Positions 6,763 to 34,165 of a stretch of 43,713 nucleotides of DNA are shown here, piece by piece. Within the stretch, counting starts at the first letter, position 1. Each line of letters starts with the position of its first letter. The notes beneath the pieces were generated by a model. That model ran no database searches. It saw only the letters and a list, made by a program, of their open reading frames with translations, and was not told the origin of the DNA. Made by a program: the position numbers and the translations under genes. The DNA comes from Acidobacteria bacterium AH-259-G07 (GTDB lineage Bacteria > Acidobacteriota > UBA6911 > RPQK01 > JADFOI01), in the NCBI GenBank assembly GCA_027717925.1, contig JALLON010000002.1, forward strand, positions 1 through 43,713, written 5' to 3'.

Positions 6763-6773
6763 AGCTCGCCTCC

Positions 6774-11707: not shown

Positions 11708-11736
11708 ACACTACATGATTTTTGGGAAGTTAAGAG

Positions 11737-14751: not shown

Positions 14752-14893
14752 TCCGTTGGGATTTTGTTGTGTGGTAGGTTGATTGTATGGGGAAGAGAAG
14801 CTAAGGGGCGTAAAATGGTTTGTCTATCATGAACGAGAGGCCACCTCCGCCAAAGCCGCCAACGCCACCTCAGCCACCACCTAAACCTCCTAG

Positions 14894-15120
14894 TCCTCCT
14901 CCGTCCGGGGTTAAGCGTCTGAGTTGATGCCATTGGTCATCTTGAGTGTTGAGTGATGTTGACAAATGATGAAATTCGGGGTGTGGTGAGGTTTTAGGAC
15001 GCCGAGCACAAAAAAAGCCGACCATATGGTCGGCTTTACTTGTCTTAACGCCAAAAACTCTTAGTTCTTATTGCCGGTATCTGTCCATTGAGCGGGGGCG
15101 ATAGTGAGGCAGATTGAACA
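14894..15120 (+). repeat. ghost mobile-element end, copy 1 (includes a decayed excisionase 3' end)
   Basis: It shares these blocks with 26913-27207 and 28211-28476: tcctcctccgtccgggg; ttgacaaatgatgaaattcggggtgtggtgag (14959-14990); ccgagcacaaaaaaa plus a hairpin; and tctgtccattga(g/c)cgggg. Read on the minus strand, the last block gives HYRPRSMDRYRQ*. Compare NYRPRSMDRNGRN* at the end of the intact excisionase gene (28351). Confidence 0.7.
15009..15037 (-). terminator. rho-independent terminator downstream of the 15203 gene (bidirectional-looking)
   Basis: Hairpin gccgacc-atat-ggtcggc (15017-15034). It is flanked by an A-run on the plus strand, which is a T-run on the minus strand. Confidence 0.7.
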
Positions 15121-15202: not shown

Positions 15203-16300
15203 TTACTTGTTCCCTGTCTCATGGATTTGGTGAAGCCGTCTAATTGTGGTGGCTGCCTCTTTATATCGCGTTTTTTGCTCTGACTCAGGTGTGGACCAAA
15301 GTTCCTTGAGCTTGAGCTTTATTGTTTGCAAAATTTCTTCATCATTGAGGGTACCGATAGCGTTGTGCGTCCTAATTGCTGTTGCCAAATCACTATGGTC
15401 TAAAGCTGACTGAGCAAAGCCACGAAGAGTAGCTTTGGCTCGCTCAGCTGCTGCCTCATGAAACTCTCTCTTTTTGCGATCCCACACTTCGAACTTGTAA
15501 GATTTGGGTGCTTTCTCCAAGGTGTGGTAACCCCAATCCTTGATTTTCTTGCCGAGATCGTAGTCATTCCGCATCCTACCCAACTTATCAGATAGTGCTT
15601 TTACTTCTTCCGGAGAAAGAAGTAGCGAGTTATTGGCTATCTCCCTTTCTTCGCCAATGAATTTAGCGAGCGTATCTATGACTTTGTCAGGCGTAATTTC
15701 CCGGAAGGATCGAACCCGGATTGGAACATTCTCTATGATCCTGTGAAGATACTGCTCTCTGGTGACTTGAGCGATTGGGATGTGGTACTCACTATAAACA
15801 GGCAATCGATATTCGCCGTAATTCTTCTGAGACGTTAGCAAGGTCGCCTGACTCAACACTTTTTCTTTCTGGAAGGCGGAAAGCTCATTGGGTGCTTTCA
15901 ACGCGAGGTAATTTGCATATCCGATGTCATGTGATTTCTCAAGTATAGTTTTGTATTCCAAGTCGTCATCAAATCTCTCGGGTGTCTCAGAGACATCAGC
16001 TAATCTTTCGCCTGATTCCTGGATCAATTCATAAAGCTCCTCCAACCCTTTCGTCTTTTTTTCCTTTTCAACGCCCATTTCCTGCGGACTTGGGCGCTCG
16101 TATTCACCGGGCAAATCCCATTGTTTTAATTGTTTTAATGGTTTGTTAACAATCATTGAAAAACGCTGTTTTTTTAAACAATCATCACCTGGTAGACCAA
16201 CACTGAAGTCGATCACAGCCCCGAGTGCTGAGGAGTCGGCCGGATTGTCGCCAGTTTTTAGAACTCTTGTCGGTTCAACAGCTCTGCGCGGCATCCGCAT
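15203..16300 (-). CDS. hypothetical protein (365-aa ORF; ATG at 16156 would give 317 aa)
   Basis: A long ORF with no motif I can assign. The start is uncertain. It is flanked on both sides by copies of the ttgacaaa..ggtggtgag junction sequence. Confidence 0.55.
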   Translation of the reverse strand: MRMPRRAVEPTRVLKTGDNPADSSALGAVIDFSVGLPGDDCLKKQRFSMIVNKPLKQLKQWDLPGEYERPSPQEMGVEKEKKTKGLEELYELIQESGERLADVSETPERFDDDLEYKTILEKSHDIGYANYLALKAPNELSAFQKEKVLSQATLLTSQKNYGEYRLPVYSEYHIPIAQVTREQYLHRIIENVPIRVRSFREITPDKVIDTLAKFIGEEREIANNSLLLSPEEVKALSDKLGRMRNDYDLGKKIKDWGYHTLEKAPKSYKFEVWDRKKREFHEAAAERAKATLRGFAQSALDHSDLATAIRTHNAIGTLNDEEILQTIKLKLKELWSTPESEQKTRYKEAATTIRRLHQIHETGNK

Positions 16301-16440: not shown

Positions 16441-17005
16441 AAAGAAGACCAAAAGTTTCAGTCGAGGGTAGTCAAAAATTTGACAATTTACCTATTCGGA
16501 AGTCTATCATTTTACCGAAAACGCGGCAAGCAACCTAGCTCAAGTTATCCACAACCTCTCTGCTTCAACATTCCAGAACCTGTCATGCCGACTTAAACTA
16601 TTCGGACGACAAACTGAACTGGGACCAACAGTGGTATCGTGTCACTGGGGCTCCCCTTATTGCCGGATCGATGGAGGACAGGGATTTATTGGGCAATCCT
16701 TGTCCCTGACCTGCCCCCACGAGTGGTACCACCCTCTAAGTTAGAGCCGGAATTTTGGCCCTATGACCGATCGCTATCCTGCTGTTAGAAAAGGCCGTTA
16801 GAAAATGCTATTGGAAAAATGCTAATTGAAGGCGTATATTGGGAATAACCCATAGAATTCAGAGGGGTTATCTTGCGCAGTAGATGTCACATAGTCCGCG
16901 GGCAGTTTGTTTCGGTATTTCCAAATTCTTTTCACAAGGCAGCCCCGGGAGGATAGGATCAAGCCAACAGTGAGTTGTGACTTGTCAGTAGCGGGAGGGA
17001 GTGTA

Positions 17006-18454
17006 GTGGAGTGTCCTCAAAAGTCTTTCCTTCATAGAGTTTTCTTGTTTCTTGTCATACTTTTAGGTTCCTGTAATGGATTACCTGACCCACCTCCTTG
17101 GGAGACATGCCCGGGCCTGGTTCCCAGAGACAGTTTGGCTGGGGCCACCAGGCCCTTGACTGCCGACGAGCTTGTTGTCTACCTGGACACCAGTGGCAGT
17201 ATGGCGGGTTATGTTTCCCTTGATCCCCAAAGACAAACGACTTTTAGTCGCACACTGCAAGAGTTACGGAGTCTCTTCAGCATCTTGGACCCACCAGTGA
17301 GAATTCTGGTGCGGCGAGTGGAGAAAACGGTGGGTCGGCCAGAGAATGATCGAGAACTGAGCACGGCATCTGTTACGAAAGAGATGTTTAGAGGAGGGGA
17401 AACGGATCTTGCAGGAGCCATCGGTCTCTTCCCCGAGAGTCTCAGCCGTGAGTTACGAGGTCAAACAGGGGAGGATGATTCTCGACCGCCTCGATTCCAC
17501 ATCTTAGTCACAGATGGAGTCCAATCAACAAAGGAAGAAAGATCTGACTCGCCCTGCATTGCTGGGTCAGATCAAATTTGTATTCGGAAAAAAATCCTTG
17601 AGTTACTGAACAGTGGCTGGGGAGGGTGTATCATTGGGATAAGAAGTGAGTTTGAAGGTAAGATCTATTCGGAAGTTAAGCCAGGACTCATTATTGATTA
17701 CAGCGACGAATCGGACATAGACAGATTTCGCCCATTTTACCTTTACATATTTTCCCCTGACCGTGTGGCTCTCGACGATCTGGTAGAGACCCTGATTGAC
17801 AGACTGGGCCAGGTAATTCAACAGCAAGATCTAATTCGTGTACTGCCTCTGACGTCTGGTTATAGAGTTGGTTTTGCGGAGGCCGAGTTGATCATTCCAG
17901 AGGAGCAAGAAGAGTGGTTGGAGCTTAGCAGGTTGAGGGAGGAGAATCCGGCGCGGCTAACGTTGAGGGTCAGTGTCGATACTGAGGATTCTGGGCCGAA
18001 ACCTTTTGATGTTTCTCTTTCCATTCCTTGGTCCAATACGGCTAAGAAGATTGGAACTCTGGAAGATCTCGCGGCACTTGTATGGTGGGATTTGACTATT
18101 CTGAACTGTGAGGATGTGGAAATTTCAATTGAAGACGAAAAACGACGGTATCCAGAGATTACTCTGATTGGGTACGAAACCGACCCAGCCGGACGAGTAG
18201 TGCTTCATGCGTCTGCTCAATGGCCGAAAGATATAGGTGTTCTTTCTTGGCACGTTTATCGGATCGAAGGACGCCTGGATCTGAAAGAGCATACGCCTCT
18301 ATGGGTCCGGGAATGGTCTACCAACTTGGATATCAGTGAGGAGACCGGAAACAGGACCCTTAACTTGGAAAGTATGCTCTTGGGGCTTTGGCGAAACGAT
18401 TTGCTTCAGCGTCAGGTTTTAGCCGAAGTTTGCATTAGAGTAGGACCTTTATGA
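17006..18454 (+). CDS. vWA-domain lipoprotein
   Basis: The frame is open from TTG 16907. GTG 17006 has GGGAGGGAG 5 nt upstream and gives (M)ECPQKSFLHRVFLFLVILLGSC, with lipobox LLGSC. MIDAS elements: YLDTSGSM (D at 17186), GGETDLAGAI, ILVTDGVQS. The roughly 280-aa C-terminal region is unassigned. Confidence 0.75.
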   Translation: MECPQKSFLHRVFLFLVILLGSCNGLPDPPPWETCPGLVPRDSLAGATRPLTADELVVYLDTSGSMAGYVSLDPQRQTTFSRTLQELRSLFSILDPPVRILVRRVEKTVGRPENDRELSTASVTKEMFRGGETDLAGAIGLFPESLSRELRGQTGEDDSRPPRFHILVTDGVQSTKEERSDSPCIAGSDQICIRKKILELLNSGWGGCIIGIRSEFEGKIYSEVKPGLIIDYSDESDIDRFRPFYLYIFSPDRVALDDLVETLIDRLGQVIQQQDLIRVLPLTSGYRVGFAEAELIIPEEQEEWLELSRLREENPARLTLRVSVDTEDSGPKPFDVSLSIPWSNTAKKIGTLEDLAALVWWDLTILNCEDVEISIEDEKRRYPEITLIGYETDPAGRVVLHASAQWPKDIGVLSWHVYRIEGRLDLKEHTPLWVREWSTNLDISEETGNRTLNLESMLLGLWRNDLLQRQVLAEVCIRVGPL

Positions 18455-18476
18455 CTTTTGGAGGTAGCTGAAGAAG

Positions 18477-18872
18477 ATGCTCGCTGAAATTTTGGGTTCT
18501 CGTATCCTAAGATTCTTTGCCAGCAACCGCGACTACGATGATTGGCAAGACACTGCCGGTGAGTGGATTTTTGCAGCAATTGTGGTGTCGGTGCTGGGCG
18601 CAGGTCTTATACTGGGTTACAAGTGGCTTCAGAAAAGGTTAGCGAGTGTCATTAAGAAACAGACGTGGAGCAGGAATGAAACGCTGGTTTTGGTGTTTGT
18701 AGGCCTTTTTCCGGTCTTTATCCTTGTTCTAATCGTCTGGTACTCTTCACGAGATTTTGTAAATGTAATCGGTGTTGGGGGTTTAATAAAAGGAACTGTA
18801 TTGTCCTGGATTCTATATCTGTTTTTCACAACGCTTGGGCACCTGGGGCCCTGGCGAAGAGAACTTTTCTAG
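18477..18872 (+). CDS. small membrane protein (131 aa, about 3 TM)
   Basis: ATG with GGAGG upstream. Hydrophobic helices: WIFAAIVVSVLGAGLILGY, LVLVFVGLFPVFILVLIVWY, VLSWILYLFFTTLG. It lies 22 nt after the vWA gene and 11 nt before the next gene. Confidence 0.7.
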   Translation: MLAEILGSRILRFFASNRDYDDWQDTAGEWIFAAIVVSVLGAGLILGYKWLQKRLASVIKKQTWSRNETLVLVFVGLFPVFILVLIVWYSSRDFVNVIGVGGLIKGTVLSWILYLFFTTLGHLGPWRRELF

Positions 18873-18883
18873 GGAGGCTTGTT

Positions 18884-21800
18884 ATGAAGAACGTCTTTAT
18901 AGCTATCGGAGGCAGTGGCGCCAAAGTGGCTGAAACTTTTCTTCGCCTCTTGGCTATTGGTTTTCCAACGCGGAGAGAAAATACTGTTCTCACAAGTTCT
19001 GGTAACTCTCTTCAGGTATGGCGAGTTGACACAGACCTTAACTCAGGTGCAGCCGCGTCGCTTCAAAGTTGTATGAGGGACTACACTGAATTGCAAAGGC
19101 ACCTTGGGGACGATGCTGGCAGTCGGTGGGCAATGGAGGTCGATCCCAAAATCCGCCATCTCAATCCACTACAATTATCTCCCGCTGATGCCAACGATAA
19201 CATTATCAAGACGCTCAGAGGAATTCTAGATTCGAGGTATGGCGATAAGAAAAGCTCCGCACCATTGCTCGACCCATTTTACGAAAACAATGAGCTTGAC
19301 GTCGTTATAGATAGAGGATTCTACCAAAAGCCCTTTATCGGGGCAGCTATAACGGCAGTCTTTGCGGACTCGCTGACAGACGAAACCTCACCAGCTGGAA
19401 GGGTAGCGAGACTTACTTCTTTCTACGACAATGAGACGAACTTTTTCGTATGTGGCAGTTTGCATGGGGGCACAGGAGCATCTGGACTACCAGTTATGGG
19501 GCGCTTCCTGAGCACGCGACGAAAACCTGGACGGCGATGGCGTATTGGAGCGTGCCTTTTGGCTCCTTATTTTATCCCTCCACAACCACCCTTCAAGGCC
19601 TTGGAAGCAACTGCACAAATCACGGATGAAAAGATTGAAGAACTAGTCGACCAGCACGCTAGTGACCCTGCCTTCAAAGATCTGTTGCCTGAGCGAAAGC
19701 GAGAACTAGTCCGGCAGATTCTCCAAGGCTTTTACGCAGATCCGAATGAGATGGAAGCTCGTGCTCGACAAAGCCTCCTATATTACAAAGAGTACAGTAG
19801 TGAATATTTTGACGAAGTCTACCTCGTTGGTAAACCGGAACCAGACAAGCTAACAATTTGGAGTAATGGCGGACCAAGTCAGAACAACCCGCTCAATTCA
19901 GCCGAAGTAGTTGCGGCCCTTGCGGCTTTAAGGTTTTTTTCCAGATCGAGCAAGGAGAAGCCTGGTCGCTACCTACTTGGTGCATCAACGGGGGACCTAG
20001 ATTCTCAGAAGATGAATTTGTATCAGTTGCCCAGATATAGCATTGGTTCTGGCGAAGACATTGACCCGGAGAAGGTTTTTCTGGCGACTGCCGTCCTGCA
20101 TCATCTTTTGCTTCACCAGATCCGTTGGGAAGTACCGGCTAAGAGTTGGAGTGGCATCGAGGGACTACGAGATGTTTATAAAAACAATGAGACAAAGAAG
20201 GAGTCCGACTACAAGGATTACCAGGAAGCTCTACGTATCATCGCTAACTTTGCGAAGTCGTTGGTTTCACCTCATGAGACGATTGCGAGAGGGTGGAGCG
20301 GTGCTGATTCAAGCCAATTCCATGAGTTTTTCTCAGGTGACGAGGGTAGGATCAAGCAAATTACAAGCAAAGTAGCTAGGAAAAATCCGTGGAGTATTGG
20401 GGCCAAAGGGTCTCTCGTTTTGGGGCGGTCTGAGATCACGGTGTCCACAGTAGCATTCGGTAGATGGTCTCCTCCAGGGCCACAGTTTGATCGAGGTGAG
20501 TATCTTCGTTCTATTTGGTCTGAGCTCTATAGTAGGGCGTGCGATGTTAAAGGTGGCGAAACAAGCAAGGGGAGCGCCAAGGTGTTCCTTAATAGGGGTA
20601 TCGTGGGCGGTGGAGCAGGTGTTTCTGCAGACCGCATTTTTTTCACTCTGGCAAAAGACGATGTCGATGTGCCTGAATACGATCCAAAATTCTTTGAAAC
20701 CTTTCCAACGGCATGGGCCAGTGCTTATGCCTTTGTCAAAACGCTTGAGGCTAATAAGACGTCAGAGGATCGAACGGTGAAAATCGCAACCGAAGAATGG
20801 GCCTCTCTCCTTCTGCTCCATTATTACGGGATTGCCCATTTACAAGAGTACGGGAGAGAAGAGCTGCAGAGAAATTACGATAAGGATCTCTGGCCTGCCC
20901 TGAGTGGAACCTATCCTGCCAAAGGTACCGACCTTGACAGGGTAAGCGTGCTTGAAACTGACGATGCAACTGTCTTGGGAGGATACTATGAAGAAGTCGT
21001 ATTTTTCCCAATTCGCAATCGCTCTAAGTGGAGCCAAACAAAAGAGACAGTTCTTGGCAGGTATCTCGGGGAAGGTTGGCGGCGATTATCCTGGAAGCTT
21101 TGTTCCGAAGAACTTTTGAAAGAGGACGACAGGAAGAAAGAGTTCCATAAGCACCTGAGGCAGGTTATAGAAATTCTGCCGAGTTCGAAACTCAAACACC
21201 GATTAGAGAGGTTCTGTGACAGTAAGTTTGGCAAATGGCTAGGTGTTTTAGTAGGTTCTTTGACTAGATACCCGAGAGAATGGGAGATTCCTGCTGACCA
21301 GCCTAAATCGCCTAGCACGCTCTTAGATGCGTATCCGTTCAAGAAAGGGGACGAAAAGGTCGGATATACCTATTATCTGGTTTCGGGAATGCCACAGCCT
21401 CAGCCGTGGGCTACTAAGGTTATTGTCAAGGAAGGCTGCTCCCCGTATCAGTATAGAAGGACCGGTAAATCTGAAATTACAGTCTATCTTGCCGGTCAAA
21501 AGATAAAATGTTCTCTGAGAGATAATGATAAGATTGTTGAGCTTAAAGAACTTTTTTTGTCCGATGACCCCTATTGGTCCAAAATCGATCACCCATCGGA
21601 AACTCACTCCTTTAGGATAAAGCCCTTCCACATCGTAGACTTGCGAGCTCCTGAGCTGAAAAGTGACGAGATGGCTGTGTGCCTGGCGCCACTCAAGAGA
21701 GAATTCTTAGAACATTTCCCTGAGTTGTTTTCAAATCTGGACAGAGTAGGAGTTTTCGCGGATGGGGATGCTGTGGTTTGGTCAATGCCAATAGTTTTTG

Positions 21801-23953
21801 AAGAAGAGGAAAAAACTCTTCTCTGGCGTACTACACCTATCTTACATAAGGCGCTTTCTAAGACATCAGTGGCCATCTGGCCTCCAAAGGTTTCCGACGA
21901 GTGGAGACTCTATATAGCTTATGTAACTGGTGGCAAGAAGAAAGAATGGGGATCATGGCACCTGATTGACGAGAATGGGGTAAAAGGTACGAGCATTGAA
22001 CTAGAAGAGGATGAGCACGTTAGTGTTCTAAAGAATGTGAACTCGCCGAACAGACCCAGAGCCTTACTTTTTGAGGACCATAAGAGTACAGAAAGGGGTC
22101 TTTTGCTCCTCGCTGGTTCCGACAAGGACAAAGACATTCGTGCCCCAAGCCTAGATACAAAGGTCGTCTTGTCTGTCGATTTCGGAACGAGTAACACATG
22201 TTTTGCTTACAAGAAGACTGATTCTTCGGTCCTCACTTTTGGTGTCAGTCCGGCAATGGTTTGGGGACCCAGTTTCCCTGAAGGGCCTGGCTTTGTCCCT
22301 TTTGAATGGGGGGGCAGGAAGGGCTTTTTCCCAACAGTTTTGCTATCGAGGCGGAACGCACGGAAGCTGTTTGAGATCGACCCGAGCGAGATTAGAATCG
22401 AGCAGTTGACCAGAGTCGACATCCCAGGTCTCCATTTCGGATTGGAGAAAGCCCTATATCATGGAGAGTTAAACGCGCTGTGGGAAGGGCACACAGACTT
22501 AAAGTGGGGTTTAGACCTCCAGACTCCCTGGCGTTCTTTGTTTCTGGCATTATCGCTACTTTACGCCCATGCTGAAGTGTTTTTCGGTGATGACAAGGGC
22601 GGGAAAATCGATCAGTATGTTTTTACCTTTCCATTAGCAATGTCTACCAACAAAGAGCACTTTCACAACGAAGTACGAAGGCTAATTCGGAAGGTGCGAG
22701 AGTGGTGCTACGGTTCGAGCTCAACGGATTTGGATTACATCGACTACATTAGTGAAAGCATAGCTGTTGCACGTCACGCTCGTGTCGGTAAGAGCCGATC
22801 AAGCATTGATTTATTCATTGATGTAGGTGGAGGAACCGCAGACATTGCTGTGCGTCGCAAGCACGACTTCCTAGCTTTGGATAGCATCAGGGTGGCCGGA
22901 AACACCTTTTTCAAGTTCGCTCAAAAGAATTTCGCTGAGGATGAGGATATTGTAGGGGCCTCGCAGTTCAAAAGGCATCTGGCCAGAGTTTTGTTGCCTG
23001 GGAAGGCTGGTGAACTTGAGGCCAAGGATCTGCCAATGGATCTAAGCACTTTTTACTCCCTTGCGATAAATGCTTTGACAGATGAAGAGTTTAGACGATG
23101 GGAAGCAACAGTGCTAAAGGAAGGCATGGGAGAAAGAAAGAAAGACCCCTCTTATCAGCAATATCGGACGCGTTTGCTTTTCCGTCATCTTTTAGCTTAT
23201 TCGCTACTCCAAGCATGTGCTGCTACTATCCATCATCGATGTGAACTTAGAGATGGTATCAAAGTGATCCTCGCAGGGAACGGCTGGGGCCTAATGTTGT
23301 TTGGAGAACTTACCAGAAGAAGCGAAGAAATAAAAGAGGAATCCAATAGAATCCTTGGACTCTGGAAACCCAAAATGTTGGAGCTGATCGATGAAGCCGA
23401 GGGTGAGTATTTGGACCAACTTTTTGTGCGAGACGTAGAACTGCTGAATGAAAAGAACTTTGCACAAGCAAAGACGGCCGTGAGTCTTGGCGCTCTGAAT
23501 GCTGTGGAGGAGGGGCAGAAAAGTGAAACTTTGGTGAGGCCATACACGGGAATTACAATCAAAAACCTGAGGATCAATGACGACTTGGGCCCGACTACTC
23601 TGCGTTGGTGCGATAAGTGGGGATATGAGGTCCTTAAAGAGAGATTCGATTCGTTGGAGGATATTGAGAGCGTTGAGTTTGAGGTACCCCCGCAACTTCG
23701 CAAACCGCTAGATTCCATCATGACTATATTCACTTGCCTCGGAAACGCCAGGAGAATTGATCAAGATAACTCGCCTCCGGAGTTGTGGCACGATGTCAAT
23801 GCCGAGCTTGCTAGCTACATTACAGGTCTGAGTGGGCGAGAAATGGGCCCTTGCCCAGTTAATTATTTCCTTTCTGGGGTGTTATACGCCGAGGATGAGC
23901 AGCGGGATTTTCTAGATATACTCGCGGAGACTAACGGTCGCTATAGCGCGTAG
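18884..23953 (+). CDS. 1689-aa fusion protein: N-terminal tubulin/FtsZ-like GTPase domain, about 700-aa unassigned middle, C-terminal Hsp70/actin-like (ASKHA) ATPase domain
   Basis: ATG with GGGAGG 7 nt upstream. N-terminal motifs: VFIAIGGSGAKV (T1 loop-like, 18908), WRVDTD, RGFYQKPFIGAAI, and FVCGSLHGGTGASGLPV (tubulin signature GGTGSG-like, 19463). C-terminal motifs: VVLSVDFGTSNTCFAY (phosphate-1, D at 22178), LFIDVGGGTADIAV (phosphate-2, D at 22820), VILAGNGWG (adenosine-motif-like). No TM segments. Confidence 0.75.
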   Translation: MKNVFIAIGGSGAKVAETFLRLLAIGFPTRRENTVLTSSGNSLQVWRVDTDLNSGAAASLQSCMRDYTELQRHLGDDAGSRWAMEVDPKIRHLNPLQLSPADANDNIIKTLRGILDSRYGDKKSSAPLLDPFYENNELDVVIDRGFYQKPFIGAAITAVFADSLTDETSPAGRVARLTSFYDNETNFFVCGSLHGGTGASGLPVMGRFLSTRRKPGRRWRIGACLLAPYFIPPQPPFKALEATAQITDEKIEELVDQHASDPAFKDLLPERKRELVRQILQGFYADPNEMEARARQSLLYYKEYSSEYFDEVYLVGKPEPDKLTIWSNGGPSQNNPLNSAEVVAALAALRFFSRSSKEKPGRYLLGASTGDLDSQKMNLYQLPRYSIGSGEDIDPEKVFLATAVLHHLLLHQIRWEVPAKSWSGIEGLRDVYKNNETKKESDYKDYQEALRIIANFAKSLVSPHETIARGWSGADSSQFHEFFSGDEGRIKQITSKVARKNPWSIGAKGSLVLGRSEITVSTVAFGRWSPPGPQFDRGEYLRSIWSELYSRACDVKGGETSKGSAKVFLNRGIVGGGAGVSADRIFFTLAKDDVDVPEYDPKFFETFPTAWASAYAFVKTLEANKTSEDRTVKIATEEWASLLLLHYYGIAHLQEYGREELQRNYDKDLWPALSGTYPAKGTDLDRVSVLETDDATVLGGYYEEVVFFPIRNRSKWSQTKETVLGRYLGEGWRRLSWKLCSEELLKEDDRKKEFHKHLRQVIEILPSSKLKHRLERFCDSKFGKWLGVLVGSLTRYPREWEIPADQPKSPSTLLDAYPFKKGDEKVGYTYYLVSGMPQPQPWATKVIVKEGCSPYQYRRTGKSEITVYLAGQKIKCSLRDNDKIVELKELFLSDDPYWSKIDHPSETHSFRIKPFHIVDLRAPELKSDEMAVCLAPLKREFLEHFPELFSNLDRVGVFADGDAVVWSMPIVFEEEEKTLLWRTTPILHKALSKTSVAIWPPKVSDEWRLYIAYVTGGKKKEWGSWHLIDENGVKGTSIELEEDEHVSVLKNVNSPNRPRALLFEDHKSTERGLLLLAGSDKDKDIRAPSLDTKVVLSVDFGTSNTCFAYKKTDSSVLTFGVSPAMVWGPSFPEGPGFVPFEWGGRKGFFPTVLLSRRNARKLFEIDPSEIRIEQLTRVDIPGLHFGLEKALYHGELNALWEGHTDLKWGLDLQTPWRSLFLALSLLYAHAEVFFGDDKGGKIDQYVFTFPLAMSTNKEHFHNEVRRLIRKVREWCYGSSSTDLDYIDYISESIAVARHARVGKSRSSIDLFIDVGGGTADIAVRRKHDFLALDSIRVAGNTFFKFAQKNFAEDEDIVGASQFKRHLARVLLPGKAGELEAKDLPMDLSTFYSLAINALTDEEFRRWEATVLKEGMGERKKDPSYQQYRTRLLFRHLLAYSLLQACAATIHHRCELRDGIKVILAGNGWGLMLFGELTRRSEEIKEESNRILGLWKPKMLELIDEAEGEYLDQLFVRDVELLNEKNFAQAKTAVSLGALNAVEEGQKSETLVRPYTGITIKNLRINDDLGPTTLRWCDKWGYEVLKERFDSLEDIESVEFEVPPQLRKPLDSIMTIFTCLGNARRIDQDNSPPELWHDVNAELASYITGLSGREMGPCPVNYFLSGVLYAEDEQRDFLDILAETNGRYSA

Positions 23954-24038
23954 CACTGAGAGTATTTTCGAGAATTCTGGACGATTTGTTGGTTGATTTA
24001 AAGCTCCAAGCAGTGGACAACAAGGGAGTTCTTACTCC

Positions 24039-24875
24039 ATGAGGGTACGGATGCGAAGACGCCGGATTTTAATGCTGAAGCAGGTATTCGTCGGAGTCCT
24101 AGCCTTTCTAGTTCTTGTCGTGGTCCTAGTTCTGCCAGCGATTTTGGTTAACGCGGGCGTAGTTGAGTGGATAGAACTAGTCGCTGTAGGGGTGTTAGTG
24201 TTGCTCACGCACCTGGTGCTACTGTGGAGAAAGAATGTAGACTTTTTGAGCGAAATGCTCGTCAGCTTGGAGAGAATCGCTGTCTCCATGGATGCGATTC
24301 TTGATGACAAACGGGAAGCTTGGGATTACACTCGCGGGGCTTTTGACGGGTCAGTTGCTAGACTCGAAAGGAATATTATCTCTGAATTAAAACCGTTGAA
24401 AACGGAAATTAGCAACATCCTCAATGAACTGGTCAAATCCAAAACCCTTCTCACGCATTTGGAGCGAGCGTCGGTTCCTGCTCATGAGGCTAAGATGCCA
24501 CAAGGCGAGGACCGGTCGAAAGCAATACTGGATGAAGATACTCGATCTCCTTTCGTGTTTCCGGTTTCAGCCGATGAGTTTATAAGCGCTACTGAAAGCA
24601 AGGCGATTGTAGCAAAGGATGATTTGAGCGGCATTCTAGTGAGGGATATGGAAGGCAAAGGGCAGTTCCTAATCATACCCAATGCTACTGGTGGAATTCT
24701 TATCCCGAGGTTGGCGCATTTCAACAGGAAGTCCGATTTCTATACTCACTATGAAAAATATTACTATTGCAGCAACCCTTCCGCGGGAGCCATTTCGATC
24801 GTTCGGCCTGCCACTGTCGGTCAAGTGACAGGGGGTTGGAAACTTACAGAAAAAGGACAGCTGGAGATTAGTTGA
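24039..24875 (+). CDS. membrane-anchored coiled-coil protein (278 aa, 2 N-terminal TM)
   Basis: ATG start. TM helices: VFVGVLAFLVLVVVLVLPAILV and IELVAVGVLVLLTHLVLLW. These are followed by a coiled-coil segment and an unassigned, roughly 110-aa C-terminal domain (FLIIPNATGGILIPRLAHF...YYYCSNP). Confidence 0.65.
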   Translation: MRVRMRRRRILMLKQVFVGVLAFLVLVVVLVLPAILVNAGVVEWIELVAVGVLVLLTHLVLLWRKNVDFLSEMLVSLERIAVSMDAILDDKREAWDYTRGAFDGSVARLERNIISELKPLKTEISNILNELVKSKTLLTHLERASVPAHEAKMPQGEDRSKAILDEDTRSPFVFPVSADEFISATESKAIVAKDDLSGILVRDMEGKGQFLIIPNATGGILIPRLAHFNRKSDFYTHYEKYYYCSNPSAGAISIVRPATVGQVTGGWKLTEKGQLEIS

Positions 24876-24879
24876 CTCT

Positions 24880-26490
24880 ATGGCCTACCGCAGTGCTCAA
24901 GACCAGCAACTGAAGGTCTTTTGTCCTACACACAGTCTAAGCTTTCGAGTCCTTCGAAGCAGCGTCATTCTTTGTAGCGATGGCTCGCACGCATTGTCCC
25001 AAGATTTCCCGTATGGGGAATATTGGTGTTTCTGTTGTGATTGCCAGAATTTCTGGCCCTCAAATTTGACAGGGGAGGGCTTACGGTGGAAGCAATGTGT
25101 CGTTTGCGGTCGGCAAGTCGCCAGGCGATATTTGTGTCCTAAATGCAAGGTGGTGAGTTTTGAATCGACTGAATCGGAAGAAGAAAAGTCTTTCAGTATC
25201 TTAAGGAACGGCGTAATACAACCGTCCTGTCCGGCATGTTTTTCCACTCTGAATGTTCCGGCAGCGTCTCATCAGTGTTCAGAAGTCAAAGCCCTTCTGA
25301 TGATCAGCACGGCCTCATGCCCTTTTTGCCAGGAGCCCATCGATTCAGAGAGAGAACAAGGTAAGGAAATGCGTGCAGAGCCTCAGCATGGCAACAAGGC
25401 CGTGGTCAGCAAGAGGCTACCTAAGACTAAGATCAAGAGTGGCATGCGAGACGCGGCCAGCAATGTGCGGCCTCTGGTTCGAGGCAAAAAGGGTAGTTCA
25501 TTCCCAGAAAATCGAAGGGAAAAGTCCGATGATGCAAGCCAAGCCTCACAAGAGGAATCAAGGAGTGACCAGGAACTGGAGTTAGAACTCCAAAAAATGA
25601 CCGAAAAGATGGGCGAGTTGGAATCAAGCTATTCGGAAGTACAGCAGTTAGCGCAAGAGAGATTGGAAGGGCTTGAGCAAAAGGAAAACGCTTTACAGCG
25701 AATGAAAGCGCATGCTCGATTCGGGTGGGTTTTGGGCTTGTCCACTATTGCGATGATAATCGTTCTGCTAATCTTCTCGCCAACCGGCTCCAAGGAAGCG
25801 AGTGGATCTGACAAGCTAGACGAGTTGCAGAAGCGTAACCAGGAACTGGAGTTAGAACTCCAAAAAATGACCGAAAAGATTGGCGACTTGGAATCGAGCT
25901 ATTCCGAACTACAACAGTTAGCACAAGACAGATTGGACACAGCACAATTTCTTAACCGGGAACTTGAGCAAAGAGAAAATGCTTTACGTCGGATGAGAGC
26001 GGAAACTGGGTCTTCCATTAACTCTTACGAGGGCAGGGTCCGAACCCTAGCCACAGAAAAGACTGAGCTCTCATTGAGTAACGAGAAGCTCAAGAGTCAG
26101 AACACGGGATTGACATCAAGAATTCGTGAGTTGGAAACGAACTTGAAGGTGAAAGAGGCGGAGCTACGGGAGATTGCCAGAAAAGAAGCTCCCTTAGCCG
26201 TTGACAATGCTAAAGTTCCTAGGACGGGAATCGTTCATTGGCGTTGTCAAGACCGGAAGGGTGAGGTGTTAGTCGAGATCTGGGAGAATAAGGCAAATGT
26301 CGGTATGGTCACGGACGGTGTGTTGCCGCAAGTTCCTGTAAAGTTTACTGATGTTAATCGCGTAGGAAGAGTTGAGATCCTTTCAATGAAACCACCTACC
26401 CACAGCAACTCCTCTGCTCAATTCATACTCCGAGTAAAAGATGAAGATCCCTTCGGTCTTGTAATATTCTGGGAGAGGTTGGGCCAGTGA
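24880..26490 (+). CDS. Zn-ribbon-rich, single-TM coiled-coil protein (536 aa) with internal duplication
   Basis: It starts 4 nt after the previous stop. The N-terminus has multiple Cys pairs (CFCCDC, CVVCG, CPKC, CPAC, CPFC). A duplicated segment QELELELQKMTEK(M/I)G(E/D)LESSYSE(V/L)QQLAQ(E/D)RL lies on either side of the TM helix FGWVLGLSTIAMIIVLLIF. The C-terminal beta-like domain is unassigned. Confidence 0.7.
   Translation: MAYRSAQDQQLKVFCPTHSLSFRVLRSSVILCSDGSHALSQDFPYGEYWCFCCDCQNFWPSNLTGEGLRWKQCVVCGRQVARRYLCPKCKVVSFESTESEEEKSFSILRNGVIQPSCPACFSTLNVPAASHQCSEVKALLMISTASCPFCQEPIDSEREQGKEMRAEPQHGNKAVVSKRLPKTKIKSGMRDAASNVRPLVRGKKGSSFPENRREKSDDASQASQEESRSDQELELELQKMTEKMGELESSYSEVQQLAQERLEGLEQKENALQRMKAHARFGWVLGLSTIAMIIVLLIFSPTGSKEASGSDKLDELQKRNQELELELQKMTEKIGDLESSYSELQQLAQDRLDTAQFLNRELEQRENALRRMRAETGSSINSYEGRVRTLATEKTELSLSNEKLKSQNTGLTSRIRELETNLKVKEAELREIARKEAPLAVDNAKVPRTGIVHWRCQDRKGEVLVEIWENKANVGMVTDGVLPQVPVKFTDVNRVGRVEILSMKPPTHSNSSAQFILRVKDEDPFGLVIFWERLGQ
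25569..25937 (+). repeat. in-frame intragenic direct repeat (about 99 bp x2, 270-bp offset)
   Basis: 25569-25667 versus 25839-25937. The first 42 nt are identical (ccaggaactggagttagaactccaaaaaatgaccgaaaagat). The rest is about 85% identical by eye. Confidence 0.85.
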
Positions 26491-26762
26491 ATCGAGAGCT
26501 GTCCTGCCCGGAAGTTGGTGATCCTGAAATGAAGTCTCTTTCTGCGCAGTGGGCCGAATCACTCCATCTGGGCAAGGATTTGGGCGAACTTGTGCTGGAC
26601 AAAAAGCCGCAAACTGCACGTGAAGAAATAGAAACCTTTGTTGCTTGTCTGAACCTCCTGCTCAAACAAAACGCAAAGTTTGAACTAGCTGATTGGCGTG
26701 AGAGGCAATATGGGACCCACATGGCACAAGCCGCAATAATAAAGGTAATGCCTCCTGCCTAA
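26487..26762 (+). CDS. small hypothetical protein (91 aa), last gene of the operon
   Basis: The GTG start overlaps the preceding TGA (GTGA at 26487-26490). No motif assigned. Confidence 0.5.
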   Translation: MNRELSCPEVGDPEMKSLSAQWAESLHLGKDLGELVLDKKPQTAREEIETFVACLNLLLKQNAKFELADWRERQYGTHMAQAAIIKVMPPA

Positions 26763-26912
26763 ACCAAATTCTTCTGCGGGCAAAAAGCCTCCGGCTTTCG
26801 GAGTACTAGGGTGAAAAAGGATCATCAGGGATTCCGATACTCCACCACAATTTCTCCGCTCTGACGAATCAAAATATCCACATCATCATCCCCTACTGGG
26901 TCGTTATGATTG

Positions 26913-27207
26913 TCCTCCTCCGTCCGGGGGTTAGGGTCTGAATTGAAGAGCATCGTGCATCTTGATCCTGAGCGAAGTTGACAAGTGATGAAATTCGGTG
27001 TGTGGTGAGTTTTTAGTCCTCCGAGCACAAAAAAAGAGCGGGGATGAACCCGCTCTCTTGCCTTTCTGACCTAGTCTCGCTTTAGTTGCGACCGTTTCTG
27101 TCCATTGACCGGGGCCGATAGTTTTGCTGTTCGATCCATTCCAGTATTTGTTCTTTTACGAAGCGGACATTTGATTGGATTTTCACGTAGGGAATAAGTA
27201 GCCGCTG
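26913..27207 (+). repeat. ghost mobile-element end, copy 2 (contains the 3' third of an excisionase gene)
   Basis: It is near-identical to 28211-28476 apart from a 17-bp indel. Minus-strand translation gives ...LLIPYVKIQSNVRFVKEQILEWIEQQNYRPRSMDRNGRN*, the C-terminus of the 28351 protein. Homology stops at about 27207. Confidence 0.85.
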
Positions 27208-29332: not shown

Positions 29333-29398
29333 CGCAACCTCCTTTACAGGTTGGGTGGTCAGGTCTCACATCCTGCTGTGTACAGGGTGTGAGACCGC

Positions 29399-34148: not shown

Positions 34149-34165
34149 TTGGTCAGATCATGTCC

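What the first reader, a model, noticed from the sequence alone, without database searches (positions are those of the whole stretch)
16907..26762. Six-gene operon built around a tubulin/FtsZ-like + Hsp70/actin-like fusion protein, with a vWA lipoprotein and membrane coiled-coil partners
The genes are on one strand and separated only by small gaps or overlaps: 18454/18477, 18872/18884, 23953/24039, 24875/24880, and a GTGA overlap at 26487-26490. The products are: (1) a lipoprotein (lipobox LLGSC) with a full vWA MIDAS set (YLDTSGSM, GGETDLAGAI, ILVTDGVQS); (2) a 131-aa protein with about 3 TM helices; (3) a 1689-aa soluble protein with tubulin/FtsZ G-box motifs at its N-terminus and ASKHA phosphate motifs at its C-terminus; (4) a 278-aa protein with 2 TM helices, a coiled coil and an unassigned C-domain; (5) a 536-aa protein with several CxxC pairs and a duplicated coiled coil on either side of one TM helix; (6) a 91-aa protein. 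By motif, none resembles a component of the defence systems I can name (R-M, CBASS, Thoeris, Gabija, Septu, Zorya, Druantia, BREX, DISARM, Lamassu, retrons, Avs). To my recollection, divergent FtsZ/tubulin-like proteins encoded next to vWA and membrane proteins have been noted computationally and tentatively linked to membrane remodelling, with no demonstrated function. I know of no description of such a protein fused to an Hsp70/actin-fold ATPase. The context supports a conflict role: decayed mobile-element ends bracket the operon, and TIR, caspase, R-M and DUF262 genes surround it. An NTP-driven, envelope-spanning conflict or membrane-remodelling machine is a reasonable hypothesis.
Basis: partly seen in the sequence, partly recalled or inferred. 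Interest (0 to 1): 0.92.

Follow-up and report, generated by a model that had tools for sequence, protein, structure and literature searches.

The report
Fused tubulin-like and actin-like envelope operon
The operon is real and encodes a giant protein that joins a tubulin/FtsZ-like GTPase to an actin/Hsp70-fold ATPase. It is a rare fused form of a widespread, uncharacterised membrane-associated gene cassette whose biological role is still unknown.

Summary
All six co-directional genes exist exactly as described. The 1689-aa protein has an N-terminal tubulin/FtsZ-like domain. This rests on a profile chain to Pfam Tubulin_2 and on an AF2 model whose top Foldseek hits are tubulin and FtsZ. It also has a C-terminal ASKHA ATPase domain (MreB profile E 1e-6; Foldseek DnaK/MreB E 1e-9 to 1e-7).

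The fusion is the exception. In 44 of 44 Acidobacteriota species genomes, and in hundreds of metagenome clusters, the same operon has two adjacent genes instead: tubulin-like (about 565 aa) and middle+ASKHA (about 1130 aa). The window's copy nests inside that split clade, so it is probably a secondary re-fusion.

A four-gene core (MIDAS lipoprotein, small 3-TM protein, tubulin-like, ASKHA) is far more widespread, with at least 1,835 clusters at 50% identity. It occurs in Cyanobacteriota plasmids, Prevotella, a spirochaete and predicted viral contigs. In 54 of 56 metagenome loci the ASKHA partner lies immediately downstream.

No Pfam, PADLOC or NCBIfam model reaches its cut-off on any of the six window proteins, and I found no paper describing the cassette. 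The nearest precedent is the predicted FtsZl1–vWA operons. The conflict role is only partly supported. The window copy is cargo on a defence-rich conjugative element, but other loci show no defence-island signature.

The parts
16907..18454 (+). g1: lipoprotein with an N-terminal vWA-like domain carrying a MIDAS-type motif (D94-x-S-x-S98, T166, D203) and a C-terminal domain of about 300 aa of unknown fold. The probable true start is GTG 17006.
   Evidence: motifs and lipobox Cys nearly invariant in 51 homologues; Pfam VWA_2 only E 0.035-0.25, but covering model positions 2-106 of 107; hhalign against an integrin I-domain, E 6e-4, MIDAS in register; start codon and SD.
18477..18872 (+). g2: small membrane protein with 3 predicted TM helices. 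It always lies between g1 and the tubulin-like gene.
   Evidence: Homologues are 47-52% identical in split operons. A 126-180-aa gene sits in the same position in the wider family.
18884..20539 (+). g3 residues 1-552: tubulin/FtsZ-like GTPase domain plus an alpha-helical domain. This part is a stand-alone gene in nearly all relatives.
   Evidence: relatives pass the Pfam Tubulin_2 gathering score; AF2 pLDDT 90, pTM 0.93; Foldseek top hits tubulin/FtsZ, E about 1e-4, TM 0.2-0.35.
20540..20608 (+). g3 residues 553-575: fusion linker (…CDVKGGETSKGSAK…). It replaces the stop codon, the 41-944-nt intergenic region and the start codon of the split form.
   Evidence: junction comparison; the only segment with pLDDT below 50.
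20609..22108 (+). g3 residues 576-1075: middle region, alpha/beta then beta-rich, with no assignable family.
   Evidence: confidently modelled; no PDB sequence match; no Pfam hit.
22109..23953 (+). g3 residues 1076-1689: ASKHA (actin/MreB/Hsp70-NBD fold) ATPase domain with intact phosphate-1, connect-1, phosphate-2 and adenosine motifs, plus a helical C-terminal extension.
   Evidence: weak MreB hit; profile vs PDB: MreB E 1.1e-6, also DnaK, Hsp70, actin, FtsA; precomputed PF06723 in homologues; Foldseek DnaK/MreB/actin E 2e-9 to 3e-7, TM up to 0.60 on MreB.
24039..24875 (+). g4: protein with 2 TM helices, a coiled coil and a conserved C-terminal domain of about 110 aa (residues about 165-278; FPxxAxxY…YYxCxxPxAGxVWIVxPAxV…GGWxLxEKGxLEI).
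   Evidence: The C-domain recurs in the gene after the ASKHA gene in about ten wider-family loci and inside some g5 homologues. No PDB or Pfam match.
24880..26490 (+). g5: N-terminal Cys/His-rich multi-zinc-ribbon domain of about 150 aa (conserved), a coiled coil, 1 TM (residues 281-299), a duplicated coiled coil and a small C-terminal domain. The part after the TM varies between homologues.
   Evidence: 15 Cys and 2 His invariant; the post-TM region is TPR, FGE-sulfatase, or other unassigned sequence elsewhere; D3 duplication 25565-25667 / 25835-25937.
26487..26762 (+). g6: 91-aa ORF overlapping the g5 stop. It is not conserved in any related locus and is probably not part of the system.
14893..15105 (+). 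Copy A of a roughly 200-nt repeated intergenic element (promoter-like TTGACA box, A-run, hairpin, conserved 29-mer). It marks the left boundary of the 12-kb segment that holds an unrelated 365-aa gene and the operon.
   Evidence: No Rfam family matched.
26912..27207 (+). Copy B of the same element, immediately downstream of the operon. It contains a bidirectional terminator-like hairpin at 27032-27059. A third copy lies at 28200-28476.

Best explanation
**What it is (shown).** The operon is a rare gene-fusion variant of a widespread, unnamed cassette. The cassette's constant core has four parts:
1. an extracytoplasmic lipoprotein with a MIDAS-type (vWA-like) metal site;
2. a small 3-TM protein;
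3. a cytoplasmic tubulin/FtsZ-like GTPase;
4. a large cytoplasmic protein ending in an ASKHA ATPase.

An Acidobacteriota subfamily adds two further parts: a TM/coiled-coil protein with a conserved cytoplasmic domain, and a zinc-ribbon/TM protein with a variable outward-facing domain.

**How it most likely works (inferred).**
- The tubulin-like and ASKHA proteins act as one obligate two-NTPase unit at the inner face of the cytoplasmic membrane. The logic resembles FtsZ held at the membrane by the actin-like FtsA.
- The unit is docked by the small TM protein and the coiled-coil partners.
- It is coupled across the membrane to the MIDAS lipoprotein and to the variable periplasmic domain of g5, which would serve as binding or input modules.
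- Nucleotide-dependent assembly or remodelling at the membrane would be the output.

**Status.** The cassette behaves as horizontally mobile accessory cargo. In this window it rides an integrative conjugative element among defence genes. An envelope-surveillance or conflict role is therefore the leading guess, but it has not been demonstrated.
For: **Identity of the parts**
- N-domain.
- ASKHA domain.
- MIDAS lipoprotein.
- Topology.

**Obligate pairing of the two NTPases**
- They are fused in at least 11 distant clusters at 50% identity.
- They are adjacent in 44 of 44 Acidobacteriota genomes.
- The ASKHA partner lies directly downstream in 54 of 56 wider metagenome loci and in 20 of 23 viral-contig loci.
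- The same layout occurs in Silvibacterium, a termite spirochaete, Gloeothece and Picosynechococcus plasmids, and Prevotella.
- The split/fused alternation, with the window nested in the split clade, is a classic sign of physical interaction.

**Catalytic motifs.** The motifs of both NTPases are invariant.

**Variable outward domain.** The g5 post-TM domain varies between homologues, as expected for an input module.

**Mobility**
- The window copy sits between an integrase and relaxase, primase and coupling-protein genes, alongside TIR, caspase, PLD, MTase and GmrSD-like genes.
- GC content is about 48% across most of the window (coordinates from about 3000 onward) and 58-62% in its first 2 kb.
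- The cassette occurs on plasmids.
Against: - No polymerisation, NTPase activity, interaction or phenotype has been tested for any family member.
- The Foldseek TM-scores of the N-domain against tubulin/FtsZ are low (0.2-0.35). The window protein itself does not reach E<0.1 on Pfam Tubulin or Tubulin_2.
- A T7-type catalytic loop could not be assessed. [quoted passage not shown]
- The vWA assignment is statistically weak.
- The middle domain and the g4 C-domain have no assignable fold.
- Flanks in other genomes carry amidohydrolase, TPR, CHAT, AraC and kinase genes rather than classical defence genes.
- Many Blastocatellia loci look chromosomal and partly syntenic. That pattern also fits a lineage-specific cell-biological role.
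Confidence: 0.5

Rival explanations
1. Dedicated anti-phage or anti-plasmid defence system. Invader contact at the envelope is sensed by the MIDAS lipoprotein or the variable g5 domain. This triggers NTP-driven assembly of the tubulin-like/ASKHA protein, which damages the membrane or blocks the invader (abortive-infection-like).
For: - The window copy is cargo of a conjugative or integrative element that also carries TIR, caspase, PLD/DrmC-like, MTase, GmrSD/NsnA-like and Schlafen genes.
- One Acidobacteriota locus lies beside McrBC and MmeI-type genes. Others lie beside CHAT-TPR genes.
- The distribution across phyla is patchy, and the cassette occurs on plasmids and predicted viral contigs.
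- Kaur et al. 2020 proposed that tubulin, vWA and HSP70 components act in conflict systems (PMC7159879).
Against: - There are no PADLOC hits.
- No recognisable effector domain (nuclease, NADase, pore-former or peptidase) is present in any conserved gene.
- Flank scans of about 50 other loci show no enrichment of R-M, Abi or other defence families.
- None of 50,697 isolated phage genomes carries the cassette.
- The cassette lacks the DO-GTPase and GAP1 genes that define the published conflict systems.
Confidence: 0.3
2. Lineage-retained cell-biological machine for membrane remodelling, vesicle formation or envelope organisation. This extends the Makarova-Koonin hypothesis for FtsZl1-vWA operons. 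It would have no role in conflict, and the window copy would simply have been captured by a mobile element.
For: - The gene order is the same in 44 Acidobacteriota species, with partly conserved flanks such as a downstream amidohydrolase.
- All partners are membrane-associated.
- Precedents are the FtsZ/FtsA pair and the FtsZl1 context analysis.
Against: - The distribution is patchy, and the cassette is carried on plasmids, a conjugative element and viral contigs.
- The periplasmic domain of g5 is variable.
- The cassette has not been shown to be universal in any phylum.
Confidence: 0.3
3. Surface-structure, adhesion or secretion apparatus. The ASKHA protein would act like PilM/FtsA on bitopic coiled-coil partners (PilN/O-like g4 and g5), and the vWA lipoprotein would act as an outward-facing adhesin.
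For: - The architecture resembles ASKHA PilM with bitopic PilN/O. This comparison is from my own knowledge, not from a tool result.
- MIDAS domains are typical adhesive modules.
- The topology is consistent.
Against: - No secretin, pilin, secretion ATPase or other secretion or pilus gene is in the cassette or recurrent in its flanks.
- The profiles show no similarity to PilM/N/O.
Confidence: 0.1
4. Segregation or maintenance module of the mobile element, by analogy with the tubulin-like TubZ and actin-like ParM plasmid partition systems.
For: - Both NTPase superfamilies are used for plasmid partition. This is established knowledge and was not tested here.
- Copies occur on plasmids and on a conjugative element.
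Against: - No DNA-binding adaptor or centromere-like repeat array is associated.
- The constant partners are a lipoprotein and membrane proteins.
- Most copies are chromosomal.
- The proteins are three to four times larger than TubZ or ParM.
Confidence: 0.04
5. The fusion is an assembly or sequencing artefact, and the window really has two genes.
For: The window's giant is seen on a single contig only. All of its nearest relatives are split.
Against: - The junction is not a single-base change. About 75 nt, including the stop codon, the spacer and the start codon, are replaced by an in-frame 13-residue linker.
- That linker resembles the linkers of the independently observed giants P0002 (found on 9 contigs from several samples) and P0003.
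- More distant giants with the same architecture exist.
Confidence: 0.03

Closest known systems
FtsZl1 (Pfam Tubulin_2, PF13809) – vWA operons predicted by Makarova & Koonin 2010 (PMC2875224)
   Same: - Both have a divergent tubulin/FtsZ-like GTPase encoded next to a vWA/MIDAS protein and membrane proteins.
- Relatives of the window's N-domain pass the Tubulin_2 gathering score.
- Some 2010 neighbourhoods show the same order, a 420-480-aa protein then a roughly 108-aa protein then FtsZl1 (Deinococcus). One lists a 1626-aa COG0443/DnaK neighbour (Magnetospirillum amb2961).
- Both lack any experimental function.
   Different: - Classic FtsZl1 proteins are about 1000-1150 aa, with a coiled coil and a helical C-domain. 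Here the tubulin-like unit is about 500-570 aa.
- Here the constant partner is a roughly 1100-aa ASKHA protein, which the paper does not discuss.
- The kinases, GTPases and OmpA/MotA genes typical of FtsZl1 operons are absent.
- The window protein itself does not reach E<0.1 on PF13809.
DO-GTPase / GAP1-N2 conflict systems with tubulin+vWA or HSP70 themes (Kaur, Burroughs, Iyer, Aravind 2020, PMC7159879)
   Same: - The components are the same kinds: a tubulin homologue with a C-terminal helical domain, a membrane-bound vWA fused to a beta-rich domain, and HSP70-fold proteins.
- Both are proposed to form NTP-dependent assemblies near the membrane.
   Different: - The defining DO-GTPase and GAP1 genes, and the FNIII-repeat proteins, are absent here. 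No conserved gene carries a P-loop motif.
- In that paper the tubulin and HSP70 themes are described as non-overlapping. Here they are obligately combined.
FtsZ–FtsA divisome pair
   Same: A tubulin-superfamily GTPase works with an ASKHA-fold ATPase at the cytoplasmic face of the membrane. This is a functional analogy only.
   Different: - There is no sequence-level orthology.
- Neither FtsZ_C nor the FtsA 1C subdomain was detected.
- The genes are accessory, mobile and associated with a lipoprotein.
Hsp70/DnaK chaperones and the Hsp70-like NBD modules fused to GTPases in CoCoNuT systems (PMC11090510)
   Same: - Both have the ASKHA nucleotide-binding fold with phosphate-1, phosphate-2 and adenosine motifs.
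- The CoCoNuT systems are a precedent for fusing an Hsp70-like NBD to a GTPase in a predicted defence protein.
   Different: - No Hsp70 substrate-binding domain was detected.
- The best sequence match is MreB, not DnaK.
- The partner GTPase is tubulin-type, not McrB-type.
TubZ/TubR and ParM/ParR plasmid partition systems
   Same: They use tubulin-like and actin-like NTPases and are encoded on mobile DNA.
   Different: - Those systems use one NTPase each, together with a DNA-binding adaptor and a centromere.
- Here both folds occur together with membrane and periplasmic partners, and no adaptor is present.

Membership tests
Tubulin/FtsZ superfamily | T1 (G-box) and T4 signature (GGGTG[ST]G-like) nucleotide-binding loops at the ends of strands S1 and S4 | tested here: met
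   AIGGSGAK follows strand 2-8 and GSLHGGTGAS follows strand 185-192 in the AF2 model. G9, G10, G195, T197, G198 and A199 are invariant. The only two PDB profile hits align this loop to CetZ and FtsZ, though the scores are not significant (E 1.4 and 2).
Tubulin/FtsZ superfamily | Significant sequence-profile or fold match to tubulin/FtsZ | tested here: met
   - The match is indirect but consistent.
- The N-domain profile finds proteins of about 500 aa at E 1e-33 to 1e-44. Four of the ten sampled reach the Pfam Tubulin_2 gathering cut-off, for example 36.7 bits against a cut-off of 27.
- Foldseek on a model with pLDDT 90 puts tubulin and FtsZ in 48 of the top 50 hits, at E 1.6e-4 to 1.5e-3.
- The TM-scores are only 0.2-0.35.
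Tubulin/FtsZ superfamily | T7 catalytic loop and filament-forming interfaces (cytomotive polymer) | not testable with these tools
   No residue-level structural alignment was available. A conserved GGxxQxN…E motif (G330, Q333, N335, E341) is a candidate only.
Pfam Tubulin_2 / FtsZl1 family proper | The protein itself scores above the PF13809 gathering threshold and has the FtsZl1 architecture (coiled coil plus helical C-domain, about 1000 aa) | tested here: not met
   No PF13809 hit at E<0.1 for the window protein, and the architecture differs. It is a sister or divergent subfamily, not FtsZl1 sensu stricto.
ASKHA superfamily (actin/MreB/Hsp70-NBD/sugar kinase) | Phosphate-1 (DxGT), phosphate-2 (DxGGGT..D) and adenosine (G.G) motifs in order, plus the two-lobed fold | tested here: met
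   - Motifs: D1099-F-G-T, E1291, D1313-V-GGGT-A-D1320 and G1465-N-G1467, invariant among the four giants.
- Profile vs PDB: MreB E 1.1e-6, plus DnaK, Hsp70, actin, FtsA and PPX.
- Foldseek: E 2e-9 to 3e-7, with TM up to 0.60 when normalised to MreB.
Hsp70 family proper | Hsp70-type NBD followed by a beta-sandwich substrate-binding domain and a helical lid; passes the PF00012 threshold | tested here: not met
   There is no PF00012 hit and MreB scores above DnaK. The Foldseek alignments show no better target coverage for SBD-containing DnaK chains than for NBD-only chains or MreB (TM normalised to target 0.30-0.37 against 0.42-0.60). 'Hsp70-like' should read 'ASKHA-fold'.
von Willebrand A (vWA) domain with MIDAS | DxSxS … T … D metal-site residues with the canonical spacing on a Rossmann-like fold | tested here: inconclusive
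   - The motifs are nearly invariant in 51 homologues, with spacing of about 70 and about 37 residues.
- Pfam VWA_2 gives only E 0.035-0.25, though it spans the whole model. No PDB profile hit was found.
- hhalign against the integrin alpha-L I-domain gives E 6e-4, probability 28%, with all three motifs in register.
Bacterial lipoprotein | Signal peptide ending in a lipobox [LVI][ASTVI][GAS]C | tested here: met
   LLGSC at residues 52-56, with the Cys nearly invariant in 51 homologues. The profile's only PDB hits are the lipoprotein signal peptides of YifL and LptM.
DO-GTPase/GAP1 conflict systems (Kaur et al. 2020) | One or two TRAFAC-clade DO-GTPase genes plus a GAP1 gene | tested here: not met
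   None of the six proteins has a GTPase-family hit or a Walker A motif. Conserved neighbours in other loci lack them too.
Known anti-phage defence systems (PADLOC-DB v2) | Significant match of any component to a defence-system model | tested here: not met
   Only coiled-coil noise was found, with E≥0.002.

The most novel reading that the evidence does not exclude
The cassette defines a new class of prokaryotic machine in which a tubulin-superfamily GTPase and an actin-superfamily ATPase are obligate partners, sometimes a single polypeptide. They would co-assemble on the membrane under the control of a periplasmic MIDAS lipoprotein. This could be a new mode of envelope-triggered immunity carried by plasmids, conjugative elements and prophages, or a new bacterial cytoskeletal or membrane-remodelling system. 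Either would be the first case of the two cytomotive superfamilies working as one unit outside cell division.
Probability: 0.3. Interest if true: 0.9.

Novelty: new variant of a known kind. Interest (0 to 1): 0.72.

Why it matters
- Tubulin-like and actin-like proteins are the two great cytomotive families. Here they are hard-wired together, adjacent in nearly every locus examined and fused in a few.
- The cassette spans at least four bacterial phyla, and nothing is known about its function.
- The split/fused alternation is a strong, testable prediction that the two parts interact physically.
- The cassette exists in cultured bacteria, some of them likely genetically tractable: Picosynechococcus PCC 7003, 73109 and 8807, Gloeothece PCC 7822, and Prevotella oral taxon 299.
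- The long-standing question raised by the 2010 FtsZl1 prediction, what divergent tubulin-like proteins next to vWA proteins do, therefore becomes directly testable.
- If the role is defence, it would add a mechanistically new type of system. If it is cell-biological, it would add a new bacterial cytoskeletal system.

Tried and rejected
1. **Direct family scans.** Pfam, NCBIfam and PADLOC scans of the six proteins gave essentially nothing.
2. **Full-length homology search.** Searching with the full 1689-aa protein found only 3 relatives, because long queries saturate the candidate list. That apparent rarity was misleading and disappeared with domain-level queries.
3. **PDB profile searches.** Searches with the N-domain, g1, the middle domain and g4 gave no significant hits.
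4. **Middle-domain fold.** Foldseek on the M+ASKHA model is dominated by the ASKHA part, so the middle domain remains unassigned.
5. **Defence-island signature.** I scanned the Pfam content of 77 and 123 flanking ORFs and found none. This was not a formal enrichment test and had no control set.
6. **The 365-aa divergent gene and g6.** Neither has a homologue in any related locus, so both were rejected as parts of the system.
7. **Repeat elements and integration site.** No Rfam family matches the bracketing repeats. No tRNA gene marks an integration site.
8. **Public DNA and phage collections.** There is no nucleotide-level match in plasmids and no protein-level match in isolated phage genomes.
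9. **Literature.** Searches for a tubulin-like+ASKHA/Hsp70+vWA cassette found only the 2010 and 2020 computational papers. Subscription-only literature was not searched.

Full report
**1. The observation**

They are all on the + strand, with gaps of 22, 11, 85 and 4 nt and a 4-nt overlap.

- Hydropathy gives one signal-like segment in g1, three TM helices in g2, none in the 1689-aa g3, two in g4, one in g5 and none in g6.
- The listed TTG start of g1 is probably too far upstream. A GTG at 17006, preceded by GGGAGGGAG, yields a 22-residue signal peptide ending in the lipobox LLGSC. The resulting length (482 aa) matches most Acidobacteriota homologues.
- The duplicated coiled coil in g5 is a 103-nt direct repeat at 91% identity.
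- The 'decayed ends' are real. A roughly 200-nt element occurs three times in direct orientation: 14893-15105, 26912-27207 and 28200-28476. It has a promoter-like box, an A-run, a hairpin and a conserved 29-mer. Two copies bracket a 12-kb segment holding an unrelated 365-aa gene plus the operon.
- Most of the window, the operon included, is about 48% GC, against 58-62% in the first 2 kb.
- The window carries an integrase, a Replic_Relax protein, a primase, a sigma factor and a TrwB/TraG-type coupling protein.
- It also carries caspase, TIR, PLD (DrmC-like), three methyltransferases, a GmrSD_N/NsnA-like DUF262 protein and a Schlafen/AlbA_2 protein.
- The operon is therefore cargo of an integrative, conjugative-type element rich in defence genes.

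**2. The giant protein**

Direct scans gave only a sub-threshold MreB hit.

*C-terminal part*
- A profile of the C-terminal 614 residues from four giants hits MreB (E 1.1e-6), DnaK, Hsp70, actin, FtsA and exopolyphosphatase in the PDB.
- An AlphaFold2 model of residues 576-1689 was built from 65 sequences (pLDDT 87.5, pTM 0.81).
- Its Foldseek matches are DnaK/Hsp70 nucleotide-binding domains, MreB, actin/Arp and BeeR at E 2e-9 to 3e-7. The TM-score reaches 0.60 when normalised to MreB.
- The phosphate-1 (D1099-F-G-T), connect-1 (E1291-S-x-A), phosphate-2 (D1313-x-GGG-T-x-D1320) and adenosine (G1465-x-G) motifs are invariant.
- This is an ASKHA ATPase. No Hsp70 substrate-binding domain was detected, so 'Hsp70' is too specific.

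*N-terminal part*
- A direct profile search of the PDB returns only two hits, CetZ and FtsZ. Both align at the T4 loop, but neither is significant (E 1.4 and 2).
- An exhaustive HMMER search of 1.84 billion representatives found 1,835 proteins at E≤1e-3 and 1,494 at E≤1e-10.
- Proteins of about 500 aa sampled from those hits reach the Pfam Tubulin_2 (PF13809) gathering cut-off.
- An AF2 model of residues 1-575 was built from 124 sequences (pLDDT 90, pTM 0.93).
- It places GGSGAK and GGTGAS after strands S1 and S4. Its Foldseek list is almost entirely tubulin and FtsZ (E about 1e-4, probability 1.0), though the TM-scores are low, 0.2-0.35.
- The N-domain is therefore a divergent tubulin/FtsZ-like GTPase related to Tubulin_2/FtsZl1, followed by a helical domain.

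*Middle region.* Residues 576-1075 are confidently modelled, but no family could be assigned.

**3. The fusion is the exception**

- The first search made the protein look almost unique, with only 3 relatives.
- Domain-level searches changed that. There are 314 clusters at 90% identity of stand-alone proteins, about 565 aa in the 120 listed. They are 48-64% identical to residues 1-552 and come mostly from Pyrinomonadaceae/Blastocatellia.
- There are also 63 clusters of mostly ~1115-1180-aa proteins that are 37-52% identical to residues 561-1689.
- The two are adjacent genes in an operon with the same order as the window: g1, g2, N, M+ASKHA, g4, g5. Identities to the window proteins run from 25% to 64%.
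- In 44 species-representative genomes (almost all labelled Acidobacteriota, with four under other labels), the pair is split in all 44. g1, g2, g4 and g5 homologues are in place in most, and g6 in none.
- At the junction, split genes read …LFGRTQERAA-stop, then 41-944 nt, then MANGNRKEFLN…. The window reads …LYSRACDVKGGETSKGSAKVFLN…, an in-frame replacement of about 75 nt rather than a point error.
- Other giants with the same three-part architecture exist: P0002, P0003, P0004, P0031, P0042 (a termite spirochaete), P0045, P0050, P0051, P0059 and P0101.
- In a neighbour-joining tree rooted on P0004, the fused P0002 and P0003 branch near the base. The window's N-domain sits eight nodes deep inside the split clade. 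The window's fusion therefore looks secondary.
- Repeated fission and fusion of the same two genes is strong comparative evidence that their products act as one unit.

**4. The wider cassette**

- An alignment of 84 of the roughly 500-aa Tubulin_2-like hits recovered more than 516 metagenome loci.
- Of the 56 loci with more than 2.5 kb downstream, 54 have a 630-1200-aa protein (most about 1080-1200 aa) matching the M+ASKHA profile immediately after the tubulin-like gene.
- Most also have a 126-180-aa gene and a 420-550-aa protein matching the g1 profile just upstream.
- The same layout occurs in:
  - Silvibacterium and a Termitinemataceae MAG;
  - a Gloeothece verrucosa PCC 7822 plasmid, where NCBI calls the gene 'tubulin-like domain-containing protein';
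  - plasmids of Picosynechococcus PCC 7003, 73109 and 8807 and NIES-970;
  - the 1.77-Mb replicon of Prevotella sp. oral taxon 299;
  - 20 of 23 IMG/VR predicted viral contigs.
- No isolated phage genome carries it.
- Across 51 g1-family members, the lipobox Cys and the D-x-[ST]-x-S…T…D residues are nearly invariant, with vWA/MIDAS spacing.
- Statistical support for vWA is nevertheless weak:
  - Pfam VWA_2 gives E 0.035-0.25, although it spans the whole model.
  - No PDB profile hit was found.
- g4 belongs to a family with a conserved C-terminal domain of about 110 aa and unknown fold. It also follows the ASKHA gene in about ten wider-family loci.
- g5 has an invariant multi-zinc-ribbon N-domain, a TM helix and a variable outward domain. 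That domain is TPR in most homologues, FGE-sulfatase in one, and a coiled coil here.

**5. How it probably works**

*Shown*
- Two NTPase folds with intact nucleotide motifs are obligately co-encoded.
- The constant partners are one extracytoplasmic lipoprotein and one small polytopic membrane protein.
- The additional partners are bitopic coiled-coil proteins.

*Inferred*
- The tubulin-like and ASKHA parts form a membrane-proximal two-NTPase unit, comparable in logic to FtsZ tethered by FtsA.
- The unit is docked through g2, g4 and g5.
- It is coupled across the membrane to the MIDAS lipoprotein and the variable g5 domain, which look like binding or input modules.
- The output would be nucleotide-dependent assembly or remodelling at the membrane.
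- No conserved gene carries a recognisable enzymatic effector.

**6. Which biological role?**

*For a conflict or accessory role*
- The window's element and its neighbours.
- One locus beside McrBC/MmeI-type genes, and others beside CHAT-TPR genes.
- Carriage on plasmids and predicted viral contigs.
- A patchy spread across phyla.
- Published arguments that tubulin, vWA and HSP70 modules serve in conflict systems (PMC7159879).

*Against*
- Flank scans of 15 Acidobacteriota loci and about 35 wider loci show amidohydrolase, TPR, AraC, CHAT, kinases, TerD, OmpA and bona fide Hsp70, but no enrichment of restriction or abortive-infection genes.
- The Blastocatellia loci look chromosomal and partly syntenic.

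I therefore keep defence and a lineage-retained membrane or cell-biology role at similar weight (about 0.3 each). A surface-structure role, a partition role and an artefact are minor alternatives.

**7. Relation to what is known**

- *FtsZl1-vWA operons of Makarova & Koonin 2010 (closest precedent).* They were predicted to remodel membranes and have never been tested.
  - Their supplementary tables already show a 420-480-aa gene plus a roughly 108-aa gene before FtsZl1 in Deinococcus, and a 1626-aa COG0443 neighbour in Magnetospirillum.
  - The ASKHA partnership is not discussed in the paper.
  - Classic FtsZl1 proteins have a different architecture.
  - The window protein does not reach E<0.1 on PF13809.
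- *DO-GTPase/GAP1-N2 systems of Kaur et al. 2020.*
  - They use tubulin+vWA or HSP70 as separate themes around GTPase and GAP1 genes.
  - Those GTPase and GAP1 genes are absent here.
- *Other sources.*
  - Santana-Molina et al. 2023 treat Tubulin_2 proteins only as an outgroup.
  - Six literature searches found no description of this cassette. They covered only open-access papers and bioRxiv.

**8. Verdict**

- The interpretation needs three corrections.
  - The fusion is a derived rarity of a widespread split cassette.
  - g6 is not part of the system.
  - The conflict role is unproven.
- I classify the finding as a new variant of a known but uncharacterised kind.
- Interest is high, because the family is large, unnamed, mechanistically unusual and testable in cultured hosts.

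Noticed in passing
window 14893-15105, 26912-27207, 28200-28476: A roughly 200-nt intergenic element occurs in three direct copies at 88-96% identity. It has a TTGACA-type box, the sequence GAGCACAAAAAAAG, a hairpin whose sequence differs between copies while the pairing is kept, and a conserved 29-mer GT(A/T)TCTGTCCATTGA(G/C)CGGGG(G/C)CGATAGT. The copies delimit cargo modules: the 12-kb operon segment and a 1.27-kb SnoaL module. No Rfam family matches. It could be a cassette boundary or recombination site, or a repeated promoter/terminator unit.
   Followed up: partly
window 669-1916, 28640-32402: Backbone of an integrative or conjugative element: a tyrosine integrase, a Replic_Relax protein, a DnaG-type primase, a sigma-70-like factor and a TrwB/TraG coupling protein. 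No tRNA gene is in the window. GC content drops from about 60% at 1-2000 to about 48% over the rest of the window.
   Followed up: partly
window 5551-8507 and 33081-42198: The same element carries several defence-type genes: a caspase-like peptidase, a TIR_2 protein, a PLD (DrmC-like) protein next to two methyltransferases (one Eco57I/type IIG-like, 799 aa), a Schlafen/AlbA_2 protein, and a GmrSD_N/NsnA-like DUF262 protein followed by an N6/N4 methyltransferase.
   Followed up: partly
window 9668-14751: Three unusual cargo proteins lie here: a fusion of Hypoth_Ymh with the lysozyme-inhibitor LprI domain (237 aa), a BNR/sortilin-like protein (380 aa), and a 1004-aa protein with three ChW repeats, a domain better known from Clostridia.
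   Followed up: no
window 15203-16300 (- strand) and 2565-5109: A 365-aa protein is encoded divergently from the operon and has no Pfam hit. It has no homologue in any of the related loci (L001-L143) held at the time of the search. Proteins of 503 aa and 273 aa at 2565-5109 also lack any family match.
   Followed up: partly
L012 11745-12530; also L021, L025, L032, L033, L037, L040: In a subset of split operons an extra stretch of 0.6-1.7 kb separates the tubulin-like gene from the ASKHA gene; in L012/L037 it holds a 261-aa gene with no Pfam hit. The two genes can therefore be separated without loss of the operon.
   Followed up: no
L014, L017, L020, L022, L031, L046, L051, L053 (g5 homologues): Many g5 homologues carry an internal copy of the conserved g4 C-terminal domain between the zinc-ribbon domain and the TM helix. 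This unknown domain of about 110 aa thus occurs twice per operon, probably on the cytoplasmic side.
   Followed up: partly
Literature: PMC2875224, supplementary file 5 (Deinococcus DR_0535-DR_0540, Deide_2p00760-00810): Classic FtsZl1 operons in Deinococcus pair the 420-480-aa, roughly 108-aa and FtsZl1 genes with MotA/TolQ/ExbB-like and OmpA-like genes. That stator-like pair is reminiscent of ZorAB in Zorya. This resemblance is from my own knowledge and was not tested.
   Followed up: no
L142 (Gloeothece PCC 7822 plasmid Cy782204), L143 (NIES-970 plasmid), L167 (Prevotella oral taxon 299): Cultured strains carry the split cassette. In Gloeothece and several metagenome loci the g1-size gene is transcribed divergently rather than co-directionally. 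These strains are candidate experimental hosts.
   Followed up: partly
L144-L166 (IMG/VR contigs): Twenty of 23 predicted viral contigs with a tubulin-like relative also carry the ASKHA partner. Several are near-identical copies of one another. I could not check whether these contigs are true (pro)phages, because no family searches remained.
   Followed up: partly
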